DNA from: the human T2T-CHM13v2.0 reference genome, Homo sapiens
Assembly (NCBI RefSeq): GCF_009914755.1
Contig: NC_060927.1
DNA length: 64,000 nucleotides
Direction: 5' to 3' (one strand)
Made by a program: the position numbers and the translations under genes. Under the pieces are notes generated by a model. That model was given only the letters and a program-made list of their open reading frames with translations, made no database searches and was not told the DNA's origin. Numbering within the stretch: position 1 is the stretch's first letter; every line of letters begins with the position of its first letter. Shown in pieces: positions 27,144-28,204 of the stretch.

Positions 27144-28204
27144 ATAAAAAAGTATTTTCAGTACATGAAAAAGAATGAAGTTGAAACCCTACCTCACACC
27201 ATATACAAAAATTAACTCAAGGAGTGATGCACAGAAAATGGCAGACAGAGTAGGAAGCTCCAAGAATTGACCCCTCTACTTAAGCAACCACTGAGCTGGC
27301 CAAAATGAATAGAATCATGCTACAATAATATATGAAGTGATTTTCAGTGGCTGCTAAAATCATTAGGTGAAAAGATGATGGGGCAAGGTATATAATGGAG
27401 GGATTAGACTAATAACATCTGAACCTACTGATCAATCTTAACATCACTGAAGGCGGGACAACTAGACATTATGTGTCATTCAATGAGATGCCACCTAAAA
27501 AAGTTTTCTTATTTGGCTTGGCGGCTCATGCCTGTAATCCCAACACTTTGGGAGGTGGAGGCAGGAGGACTGCTTAAGCCCAGGAGTTGGAGACCAGCCT
27601 AAGCAACATAATAAGACACTATCTCTACAAAAAATTAAAAAAATTATCCAGGCAACTCACCACCTAAAACAAACAGGAAATTAAGCCAGAAAGTAATCTT
27701 TAAAATATTATACTATGTCCTGGAAGTATTAAGCCAGAAAGTAATTTTTAAAACATTATCCTATGTCCTGAAAGTGTAAACTTCATGAAGTATTTAATAT
27801 GACATGATACTTAGAATTTGCTTTGAAATAGGCCAGGTGCAGTGGCTCATGCCTGTAATCCCAGCACTTTGGGAGGCCGAGGCAGGTGGATCATGAGGTC
27901 AGGAGTTCAAGACCAGCCTGGCCAAGATGGTGAAAACTTGTCTCTACTAAAAACTACAAAAATTAGCCGGGCACGGTGGCAGGCACCTGTCGTCCCAGCC
28001 AGATACTCAGGAGGCTGAGACAGGAGAATTGCTTGAACACAGGAGGCAGAGGTTTCAGTGAGCCGAGATTGTGCCACTGCACTCCAGCCTGGGTGACAGA
28101 GTGAGACTCTGTCTCAAAAAAAAAAAAAAAAAAAAAAAAAAAAAAAGAATTTGCTTTGAAATAAAATTTGATGTATTTTAATTCATTGTAGTATTATTCT
28201 AAAG
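27144..28204. repeat. Mosaic insertion built from locally copied segments, plus a later AluS
   Basis: 27163-27317 = inverted 28289-28444; 27322-27653 = inverted ~29380-29682; 27656-27828 = direct 32498-32617; 28162-28200 = direct 30587-30625; tactgaaa on both sides. Confidence 0.88.
27831..28145 (+). mobile_element. AluS (Sg-like) inserted inside the mosaic
   Basis: Full-length dimer, long A tail, 18-bp TSD agaatttgctttgaaata. Confidence 0.9.

What the first reader, a model, noticed from the sequence alone, without database searches (positions are those of the whole stretch)
27655..27828. Copied CLASP2 splice acceptor now reads AG|GTG|GTGAGT: candidate 3-nt microexon, recursive site or decoy
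Seen in sequence: the mosaic contains, in gene orientation, ~110 nt of the genuine intron upstream of exon 32299-32505 plus its first 8 exonic bases. The copy reads ttaatttcctgtttgttttag GTG GTGAGT tgcc on the minus strand. The authentic exon continues GTGAGA, so the fusion created a consensus donor GTGAGT three bases after the acceptor. The host intron is phase 0, so inclusion of 27661-27663 would add one in-frame Val (…GLIQ-V-GYDN…). Alternatively the acceptor could open a cryptic exon into the adjoining antisense half-Alu, or act as a stepping-stone splice site. Any use is inference.
Basis: partly seen in the sequence, partly recalled or inferred. Interest (0 to 1): 0.7.

Follow-up and report, generated by a model that had tools for sequence, protein, structure and literature searches.

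The report
Copied CLASP2 splice acceptor, probably silent
An old patchwork of locally copied DNA inside a CLASP2 intron carries a duplicate of the gene's own splice acceptor followed three bases later by a good donor, but nothing available here shows that cells use it, and it most likely is an inert by-product of a rearrangement.

Summary
The sequence observation is confirmed. On the minus (gene) strand 27665-27655 reads AG|GTG|GTGAGT. Window 27656-27828 is a diverged local copy (84-91% identity) of 32498-32617, which is the last ~112 nt of intron 36 plus the first 8 nt of exon 37. The whole genome holds only these two places. The intron is phase 0, and GTG would add one Val (GLIQ-V-GYDN).

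Two corrections apply. The donor is 8/9 inherited, because the true exon already starts GTG GTGAGA, so only the +6 base is new. No usable donor lies in the adjoining half-Alu.

The copy is one of four locally templated pieces (two inverted, two direct) forming a ~1-kb mosaic at 27163-28200. A full Alu was later inserted into it, so the mosaic is tens of millions of years old.

A crude position-weight matrix rates both sites as good as real CLASP2 sites. However, 59 equally good pseudo-exon pairs lie in the same 43 kb of intron. The site has no UGC enhancer motif, sits in an 8.8-kb intron, and abuts a predicted ~280-bp RNA duplex. No paper searched links CLASP2 to such a site.

Use as a microexon, recursive site or decoy could not be tested without RNA data. 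Most likely it is a silent rearrangement relic. Interest is low to moderate.

The parts
27655..27665 (-). Candidate splice motif: AG (27665-27664), GTG (27663-27661), GTGAGT (27660-27655)
   Evidence: Read directly. It is the only AG-GTG-GT on the minus strand within intron 37 (6 matches in the window; the minus-strand ones are at 27659-27665 and at the true exon, 32501-32507).
27656..27830 (-). C': direct copy of 32498-32617 (8 exon nt plus about 112 intron nt of the exon-37 acceptor region)
   Evidence: pooled 18 differences in 168 aligned sites. The whole genome holds only the copy and the source.
27680..27775 (.). 48-nt tandem duplication inside C', doubling the branch-point region (ttctggcttaat)
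   Evidence: period 48, 2.0 copies, 91% matches; unit1 vs unit2: 6 differences in 48.
27831..28145 (+). Full-length Alu with a 31-nt A tail, inserted into C', antisense to CLASP2. The 18-nt target-site duplication lies at 27813-27830 and 28146-28163.
   Evidence: exact 18-nt direct repeat; A run 28116-28146; 84-86% identity to the closest other Alus in the window. The S-type subfamily call is my own reading and was not tested.
28146..28161 (-). 5' end of C' on the far side of the Alu (the second copy of the target-site duplication)
   Evidence: (junction J4).
27322..27653 (.). B': inverted copy of 29380-29682. It comprises the left half of an older Alu plus part of an old dispersed repeat, and reads antisense-Alu in gene orientation directly after the donor.
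   Evidence: 268/334 identities with 33 gap columns; 89% over 141 nt against 75-79% to the other four listed members of that repeat family.
27163..27317 (.). A': inverted copy of 28289-28444 (left arm of a 156-nt inverted repeat)
   Evidence: 95% identity, 148/156; 7 differences in 155.
28289..28444 (.). A: native right arm of the inverted repeat. It lies inside old dispersed repeats that run on past both of its ends.
   Evidence: other genomic loci match 28212-28384 at 77-79%, and 28387-28460 at 84-89%.
28162..28200 (.). D': direct copy of 30587-30625
   Evidence: 38/39 identities, E 1e-12. The Alu target-site duplication overlaps its first 2 nt, so the C'/D' junction predates the Alu.
32498..32617 (-). 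Source C: the authentic 3' end of intron 36 plus the first 8 nt of exon 37 (exon 32299-32505)
   Evidence: the annotation supplied with the finding.
29380..29682 (.). Source B. The Alu is complete here (it continues to about 29222). Source B later lost 31 nt that B' and 3 of 4 other family members still align across.
30587..30625 (.). Source D

Best explanation
The stretch is a relic of an old local rearrangement, not a working splice element.

A mosaic of about 0.7 kb (27163-28200, about 1.04 kb with the later Alu) was built in CLASP2 intron 37 from four pieces copied from within the next 5 kb of the same gene. Two pieces are inverted (A', B') and two are direct (C', D'), and their order does not follow the order of the sources. 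This pattern is best explained by serial template switching during replication or break repair (an MMBIR/FoSTeS-type event). That mechanism is inferred.

Piece C' happened to include the acceptor of exon 37 and its first 8-10 exonic bases. Because exon 37 itself begins GTG GTGAGA, the copy carries an acceptor and a donor 3 nt apart, and one base change or filler base made the donor GTGAGT. Both motifs look competent.

I judge that the pair is normally ignored by the spliceosome, or used only at noise level, for four reasons:
- A 3-nt exon cannot be exon-defined, and the site lacks the UGC enhancer motif.
- The host intron is short (8.8 kb).
- The motif sits at the foot of very long predicted RNA duplexes.
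- Equally good pseudo-pairs are common in the same introns.
For: Shown:
- Copy and source are established.
- Four high-identity local pairs are the only such pairs in 20451-36872, and the whole genome holds no closer copies elsewhere.
- Sources B and A are native. The Alu is complete in B and halved in B'. A lies inside older repeats that continue past it.
- No remnant of the rest of exon 37 lies nearby, so this was not a decayed whole-exon duplication.
- Age: C'/C p-distance is 0.107, and a full Alu with an exact 18-nt target-site duplication sits inside C'. With recalled neutral rates this gives 22-68 My.
- The splice core shows no special conservation. There are 2 changes in the 29 nt around the site, like the rest of the copy. 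At this divergence, 11 key bases stay intact by chance with P = 0.55.
- The source carries the same AG|GTG|GTGAG arrangement.
- Base rate with the crude PWM (frequencies recalled, not MaxEntScan): 59 acceptor-donor pairs 3-300 nt apart, and 5 pairs 3-30 nt apart, score at or above the median annotated CLASP2 sites in about 43 kb of intron. None is an exon of the one transcript shown.
- No TGC occurs in the 100 nt upstream of the acceptor. UGC is the SRRM4 motif whose mutation was tested in a Clasp2 minigene (PMC13174390, passages).
- Intron 37 is 8,795 nt long.
- Folding: A/A' closes a loop of about 970 nt around the site in a 1.36-kb fold. In a 2.6-kb fold, B/B' forms 278 pairs starting at 27653, 2 nt after the donor.
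- Literature: 0 papers hold CLASP2 with 'recursive splic', and 0 hold it with 'pseudoexon'. Two hold it with 'cryptic exon'; I saw only their listing, and neither title concerns this site. The CLASP2 microexon discussed in print is a 24-nt SRRM4-dependent one. CLASP2 is absent from the 3 held supplement files of a human lariat-based survey of recursive sites (PMC10156609).
Against: - By motif the pair is good. The donor scores 5.92, among the top 11 of 2,393 intronic GT, and beats 4 of 6 annotated donors in the window. The acceptor scores 3.51, among the top 111 of 2,769 intronic AG, and beats 5 of 7 annotated acceptors. At its own thresholds it is the only pair 3-30 nt apart, though that threshold was set after the fact.
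- Functional 3-nt microexons exist, for example in cytohesin-1/2 (PMC6314551, passages).
- Only 1 of 81 RefSeq transcripts was visible to me, and no RNA data were available, so absence of use is not shown.
- The PWM frequencies are recalled approximations.
- Folds of naked full-length RNA say little about co-transcriptional reality.
- The single-event origin is not secure. A'/A is less diverged than C'/C (7/155 vs 18/168, Fisher p 0.04) and than B'/B (41/301, p 0.002).
Confidence: 0.7

Rival explanations
1. Stepping-stone (recursive-like) or stochastic intermediate. Exon 37 is first spliced to the acceptor at 27663, removing 4.6 kb. The remaining 4.2 kb is then removed from the regenerated donor (no trace left in the mRNA) or from the +3 donor (GTG left behind).
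For: An acceptor and donor are juxtaposed almost exactly mid-intron (4,635 and 4,157 nt segments, from the coordinates and the annotation). Both motifs score well. [quoted passage not shown]
Against: The regenerated zero-length donor CAG|GTGGTG is weak (2.13) beside the +3 donor (5.92). A traceless recursion is therefore disfavoured, and the expected product would carry GTG. The intron is only 8.8 kb. CLASP2 is absent from the papers searched and from the 3 held supplement files of PMC10156609 (these files may be incomplete). Long duplexes abut the site.
Confidence: 0.12
2. Decoy or poison pseudo-exon. The strong donor at 27660 pairs with an upstream acceptor at 27719 (59 nt), 27917 (257 nt, inside the antisense Alu) or 28031 (371 nt). 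Either a frame-shifting, stop-containing exon is included at low level and degraded by NMD, or splice factors are engaged unproductively and removal of intron 37 is slowed.
For:: three upstream acceptors score at or above the median annotated acceptor. All three give lengths not divisible by 3, with 2-8 in-frame stops. Exon definition favours 59-371 nt over 3 nt (established knowledge, recalled). The decoy-exon model is described for introns over 1 kb (PMC7373989 and PMC6097662, abstracts only).
Against: There is no expression evidence. Such pairs are common in these introns (59 at the median threshold). The Alu-borne acceptors are of the ordinary kind found in every antisense Alu. No paper links CLASP2 to a pseudoexon.
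Confidence: 0.08
3. A genuine, regulated, primate-specific 3-nt microexon that adds Val between Gln and Gly in the CLASP2 C-terminal region.
For: It is in frame with a phase-0 intron. Both splice motifs are good. Functional 3-nt microexons exist in cytohesins. The site would be uniquely mappable in this intron.
Against: There is no UGC motif in the 100 nt upstream. Known microexons are described as highly conserved (PMC7821500 abstract; PMC6314551 passage), whereas this site can be no older than the mosaic. It is not in the one transcript shown. The authentic exon 37 has nearly the same AG|GTG|GTGAGA and is not reported to be spliced as a 3-nt exon. Both splice sites 3 nt apart would be sterically hindered (recalled knowledge).
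Confidence: 0.05

Closest known systems
Intronic pseudo-exons / decoy splice sites
   Same: A good acceptor and a good donor lie deep in an intron and are not part of the annotated mRNA. Many such pairs exist in the same introns.
   Different: This one did not arise by random drift or from a transposon consensus. It is a copy of the gene's own acceptor, with a spacing of only 3 nt.
Recursive splice sites (ratchet points; vertebrate RS sites with RS-exons)
   Same: A 3' splice site is juxtaposed to a 5' splice site in mid-intron.
   Different: The strong donor lies 3 nt downstream, not at the junction. The regenerated donor is weak. The intron is 8.8 kb, not one of the very long introns where recursion was first described. 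There is no RNA evidence.
3-nt microexons of cytohesin-1/2 (PMC6314551)
   Same: Three in-frame nucleotides that would add a single residue.
   Different: The cytohesin microexons are described as evolutionarily conserved and are expressed. This site is a young copy with no known expression and no UGC motif.
Replication-based complex rearrangements with templated insertions (MMBIR/FoSTeS; named from my own knowledge)
   Same: Several short pieces were copied from within a few kb, in both orientations and out of order. The sources are retained, and the junctions carry 0-4 nt of filler or microhomology.
   Different: This is an ancient, fixed, small-scale (0.7 kb) case inside an intron rather than a pathogenic or somatic event. 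A single event is not proven, because the piece divergences differ.
Alu exonization from antisense Alus
   Same: Antisense Alu sequence flanks the motif on both sides. One Alu-borne acceptor (27917) could pair with the copied donor.
   Different: The key acceptor and donor are not Alu-derived. The downstream half-Alu offers no GT donor at or above the weakest annotated one.

Membership tests
Recursive splice site | The acceptor is directly followed by a sequence that regenerates a functional donor after ligation to the upstream exon | tested here: inconclusive
   the regenerated CAG|GTGGTG scores 2.13 in the crude PWM. That is above the weakest annotated donor (1.0) but far below the overlapping +3 donor (5.92). 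The PWM frequencies are recalled approximations.
Recursive splice site | Lies in a long intron (the classical cases are tens to hundreds of kb) | tested here: not met
   Intron 37 is 8,795 nt long (annotation coordinates). [quoted passage not shown]
Recursive splice site | Intermediate junctions, lariats or a saw-tooth pattern in nascent RNA | not testable with these tools
   No RNA data were available. CLASP2 is absent from the 3 held supplement files of PMC10156609, and 0 papers hold CLASP2 with 'recursive splic'.
Microexon (3-27 nt, regulated) | Length 3-27 nt and frame-preserving | tested here: met
   GTG adds one Val and the downstream frame is kept.
Microexon (3-27 nt, regulated) | UGC-containing SRRM4 enhancer motif just upstream of the 3' splice site (for the neuronal class) | tested here: not met
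   no TGC in the 100 nt upstream. The motif is as used in PMC13174390 (passages).
Microexon (3-27 nt, regulated) | Evolutionary conservation of the exon and its flanks | not testable with these tools
   No other primate or mammal genomes are held. The site can be no older than the mosaic (K about 0.1).
Microexon (3-27 nt, regulated) | Inclusion in transcripts | not testable with these tools
   Only 1 of 81 RefSeq transcripts was given, and it lacks the GTG.
Templated-insertion complex rearrangement (MMBIR/FoSTeS type) | Multiple segments copied from nearby templates, with mixed orientation and the sources retained | tested here: met
   four pairs (A, B inverted; C, D direct), with all sources within 5 kb and still present.
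Templated-insertion complex rearrangement (MMBIR/FoSTeS type) | Microhomology or short templated filler at the junctions | tested here: inconclusive
   the junctions show 2-4 nt of filler. The TGCT filler at 27318-27321, together with its flanking bases, equals the 8 nt that follow the end of source C (32618-32625), but only 4 of these nt are independent.
Templated-insertion complex rearrangement (MMBIR/FoSTeS type) | All pieces arose in one event | tested here: inconclusive
   A'/A (7/155) is less diverged than C'/C (18/168, p 0.04) and B'/B (41/301, p 0.002). This could reflect two events or gene conversion between the inverted arms. The C'/D' junction predates the Alu.

The most novel reading that the evidence does not exclude
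A catarrhine-specific splice element born by template-switch copying of a gene's own acceptor. In some tissue, intron 37 of CLASP2 would be removed in two steps through 27663, leaving a 3-nt GTG microexon (one extra Val in the C-terminal region). The surrounding inverted repeats (A/A', B/B') would act as an RNA-structure switch that hides or exposes the site.
Probability: 0.05. Interest if true: 0.6.

Novelty: new member of a known kind. Interest (0 to 1): 0.25.

Why it matters
If the site were used, it would be a dated, mechanistically transparent example of how a new microexon or recursive site can arise. The route would be a short templated copy of an existing acceptor whose exon happens to begin with a donor-like sequence. 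It would also add a residue to a microtubule regulator.

As the evidence stands, its value is more modest. It is a clean, fixed example of a small multi-piece templated rearrangement in a human intron. It also shows that excellent-looking acceptor/donor pairs occur without annotation. The same window holds dozens.

The site is uniquely mappable in its intron, so the question can be settled cheaply with existing RNA-seq.

Tried and rejected
1. A second templated snippet. The 12-nt ttttttaggtgg at 27485-27474 (minus strand), inside a 31-nt stretch that B' has and B lacks, looked like another copy of the acceptor. One search shows that 3 of 4 other genomic members of that old repeat family align across this stretch (the fourth alignment ends within it). 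B therefore lost it later, and the resemblance is chance. Rejected.

2. A decayed whole-exon duplication. No other similarity to exon 37 or its downstream intron exists anywhere in 20451-36872. Rejected.

3. The inverted repeat A/A' as the termini of a DNA transposon. The arms are made of fragments of older dispersed repeats, and the native arm continues into those repeats. Rejected.

4. A cryptic exon running into the half-Alu. No GT donor at or above the weakest annotated donor lies within 400 nt. GC donors were not scored.

5. MaxEntScan, SpliceAI and Pangolin are not installed. I used a crude position-weight matrix with frequencies recalled from textbook tables. Its absolute values should not be quoted; only ranks within this window are meaningful.

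7. Literature searches:
- CLASP2 with 'recursive splic': 0 papers.
- CLASP2 with 'pseudoexon': 0 papers.
- CLASP2 with 'cryptic exon': 2 papers, seen as a listing only, on unrelated topics.
- CLASP2 with 'microexon': 11 papers, 9 listed. I read passages only of PMC13174390, which concern a 24-nt mouse microexon.
- Supplements of bioRxiv preprints are closed, and the 3 supplement files held for PMC10156609 may be incomplete. A listing of this site in such tables cannot be excluded.

Full report
**1. What is in the sequence**

In gene orientation (minus strand) the window reads ...ttctggcttaatttcctgtttgttttag|gtg|gtgagt|tgcctggataattt.... AG lies at 27665-27664, GTG at 27663-27661 and GTGAGT at 27660-27655.

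The authentic acceptor of the exon at 32299-32505 reads ...ttctggcttaatttcctattttttttag|gtg|gtgaga|tctgc.... This is exon 37 of 39 in the transcript given, counting back from the last exon.

BLAST within the window aligns 27656-27732 to 32498-32574 (90.9%, 77 nt, E 4e-25) and 27728-27828 to 32522-32617 (84.2%, 101 nt, E 3e-26). A search of the whole 3.1-Gb assembly finds these two places and no other.

The two overlapping alignments exist because the copy carries a 48-nt tandem duplication (27680-27775, 2.0 copies, 91% matches). This duplication doubles the likely branch-point region.

**2. Frame**

Joining the last three coding parts gives ...EIMPGLIQGYDNSESS.... Adding 27663-27661 gives ...EIMPGLIQVGYDNSESS... 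with the downstream frame intact.

**3. The donor was mostly inherited**

The source exon begins GTG GTGAGA, so 8 of the 9 donor positions came with the copy. Only +6 (27655) differs.

At the junction (J3) the copy reads, on the plus strand...CCAGGC|AA|CTCACCACC.... Source C has ...AGAT|CTCACCACC... and source B continues ...CCAGGC|GTGATGG. The two bases 27654-27655 are therefore either filler or the tail of a 10-nt exonic homology with one mismatch. This cannot be decided without an outgroup.

In a crude position-weight matrix the change raises the donor from 4.50 to 5.92. The matrix frequencies are recalled textbook approximations, not MaxEntScan.

**4. The surroundings: a four-piece mosaic**

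A self-comparison of 20451-36872 against the window, keeping only matches in low-copy sequence, leaves exactly four high-identity local pairs (details).

| Piece | Window position | Orientation | Source | Similarity |
|---|---|---|---|---|
| A' | 27163-27317 | inverted | 28289-28444 | 148/156 |
| B' | 27322-27653 | inverted | 29380-29682 | 268/334 with 33 gap columns; 89% over the 141-nt non-Alu core |
| C' | 27656-27830, plus 28146-28161 | direct | 32498-32617 | 18 differences in 168 |
| D' | 28162-28200 | direct | 30587-30625 | 38/39 |

The order A'-B'-C'-D' matches neither the source order nor a simple inverted or direct duplication followed by deletions.

The sources are the native copies. 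The Alu that is halved in B' is complete at B. A lies inside older dispersed repeats that continue beyond both of its ends.

B' and 3 of 4 other genomic members of its old repeat family align across a 31-nt stretch that B lacks, so B lost it later. This also disposes of my passing idea that an acceptor-like ttttttaggtgg inside that stretch was a second templated snippet.

A full Alu (27831-28145, with a 31-nt A tail) sits inside C', flanked by an exact 18-nt target-site duplication (27813-27830 and 28146-28163). The duplication overlaps the first 2 nt of D', so the C'/D' junction is older than the Alu.

**5. Age**

The p-distances are as follows:

| Pair | p-distance |
|---|---|
| C'/C | 0.091-0.121 (pooled 0.107) |
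| B'/B, Alu half | 0.105 |
| B'/B, ragged global alignment of the rest | 0.161 |
| A'/A | 0.045 |
| D'/D | 0.026 (39 nt only) |

With recalled neutral rates of 1.0-2.2e-9 per site per year, K = 0.098-0.137 gives 22-68 My.

A'/A is less diverged than C'/C (Fisher p 0.04) and than B'/B (p 0.002). Either the mosaic grew in two steps, or the arms of the inverted repeat have been homogenised by gene conversion. I cannot tell which.

The inserted Alu looks like an S-type element on my own reading of diagnostic positions. This was not tested against a consensus. It is 84-86% identical to the closest other Alus in the window.

**6. How it arose (inferred)**

The pattern is several short pieces taken from within 5 kb, in both orientations and out of order, with the sources retained and 2-4 nt of filler at the junctions. 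This is the pattern expected of serial template switching during replication or break repair. The names MMBIR and FoSTeS come from my own knowledge.

Two microsatellites lie near edges of the structure. (AAC)15 at 26963-27008 lies 155 nt from the left edge of the mosaic. (AT)26 at 29697-29747 lies 15 nt from the end of source B. A role in fork stalling is speculation.

One curious detail concerns the filler TGCT at 27318-27321. With its flanking bases it forms an 8-mer identical to 32618-32625, the 8 nt that directly follow the end of source C. Only 4 of those nt are independent of A' and B', so this is a hint and not a result.

**7. Does it splice?**

This cannot be tested here. No RNA data are available, and MaxEntScan and SpliceAI are not installed.

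What could be done is a ranking by the crude matrix within the roughly 43 kb of CLASP2 intron in the window:
- The donor (5.92) is among the top 11 of 2,393 GT and beats 4 of 6 annotated donors.
- The acceptor (3.51) is among the top 111 of 2,769 AG and beats 5 of 7 annotated acceptors. It is weaker than its source (4.51) because of two T-to-G differences in the pyrimidine tract.
- At the candidate's own (post hoc) thresholds it is the only pair 3-30 nt apart, and one of 6 pairs 3-300 nt apart.
- At the median of the annotated sites there are 5 such micro-pairs and 59 pairs 3-300 nt apart. None is an exon of the transcript shown.

Good motifs alone therefore carry little weight.

Several further points argue against use:
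- No TGC occurs in the 100 nt upstream. UGC is the SRRM4-binding motif manipulated in a Clasp2 minigene (PMC13174390, passages).
- The intron is 8,795 nt long.
- The regenerated zero-length donor is weak (2.13).
- The source exon has almost the same arrangement and is annotated as a normal 207-nt exon.
- Two differences in the 29 nt around the site match the overall divergence. Eleven key bases would survive by chance with P = 0.55, so there is no sign of constraint.

Other points leave the door open:
- Conserved, functional 3-nt microexons exist in cytohesin-1/2 (PMC6314551, passages).

**8. RNA structure**

Folding the minus strand of 27120-28480 pairs A with A' in a long stem that closes a loop of about 970 nt containing the site (no shuffles at this length).

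Folding 27120-29720 instead pairs B with B' (278 pairs). It pairs the inserted Alu mostly with sequence outside the labelled pieces (269 pairs), which I take to be the neighbouring Alu at about 28678-28972 matched; the partner's coordinates were not printed. The B/B' duplex starts at 27653, 2 nt after the donor.

These are thermodynamic predictions for naked RNA. They suggest, but do not show, that the site is embedded in strongly structured RNA, which would also be a likely A-to-I editing substrate.

**9. Alternative exons**

Downstream of the acceptor, no GT within 400 nt reaches the weakest annotated donor other than the +3 one.

Upstream of the donor, acceptors at 27719, 27917 and 28031 would give pseudo-exons of 59, 257 and 371 nt. 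All three are frame-shifting, with 2-8 in-frame stops. This is the more plausible way for the copied donor to matter, as a poison or decoy exon (model described in PMC6097662 and PMC7373989, abstracts). It remains pure inference.

**10. Literature**

- CLASP2 with 'recursive splic': 0 papers.
- CLASP2 with 'pseudoexon': 0 papers.
- CLASP2 with 'cryptic exon': 2 papers, seen as a listing only, on unrelated topics.
- CLASP2 with 'microexon': 11 papers, 9 listed. In the one I read (passages), the CLASP2 microexon is 24 nt long and SRRM4-dependent.
- CLASP2 does not occur in the 3 held supplement files of the lariat survey PMC10156609.
- Supplements of preprints are closed, and held files may be cut, so a table entry elsewhere cannot be excluded.

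**11. Verdict**

The thing itself is a copy of the exon-37 acceptor, carried in an old four-piece local mosaic and later split by an Alu. The most likely role is none (0.7). The rivals are stochastic or recursive-like use (0.12), a decoy or poison exon through the copied donor (0.08) and a true 3-nt microexon (0.05).

It is a new member of known kinds: pseudo-splice sites, and small templated rearrangements.

A single test would decide the functional question. Because only one AG-GTG-GT exists on the gene strand of this intron, reads with GTG between exons 37 and 38 would map unambiguously.

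Noticed in passing
27163-27317 and 28289-28444: A 156-nt inverted repeat at 95% identity, 971 nt apart, within the CLASP2 intron. It is predicted to form a long RNA stem in the pre-mRNA and is a likely A-to-I editing substrate. It is less diverged than the other mosaic pairs, which may reflect gene conversion between the arms.
   Followed up: partly
27317-27324 vs 32618-32625: The 8-mer spanning the A'/B' junction equals the 8 nt that directly follow the end of source C. 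Only the 4-nt filler TGCT is independent of the neighbouring pieces. It may be a trace of an extra template switch, or it may be chance.
   Followed up: partly
about 29535 (source B), against 27441-27471 in B': Source B lacks 31 nt that B' and 3 of 4 other genomic members of the same old repeat family align across. The deletion therefore happened in the source after the copy was made.
   Followed up: yes
32497-32505 (minus strand): The authentic exon 37 itself begins GTG GTGAGA, a donor-like motif 3 nt inside the exon (crude score 4.50, above 3 of 6 annotated donors). Exons with donor-like 5' ends have been discussed as subject to recursive re-splicing (PMC8605326, abstract). This was not examined for CLASP2.
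   Followed up: no
26963-27008 and 29697-29747: Two perfect or near-perfect microsatellites, (AAC)15 and (AT)26. The first is 155 nt from the left edge of the mosaic and the second is 15 nt from the end of source B. They are possible fork-stalling sites, but this is speculative.
   Followed up: no
28116-28146: The Alu inside the copy keeps an uninterrupted 31-nt A tail, although it is 14-16% different from the closest other Alus in the window. That tail is long for an element of this apparent age and may have expanded by slippage.
   Followed up: no
28445-28700 (minus strand): An old LINE-1 ORF2-like fragment lies in gene orientation, adjoining arm A. This is my own reading of the sequence. 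It is supported only by the hundreds of genomic matches to its 58-nt end.
   Followed up: partly
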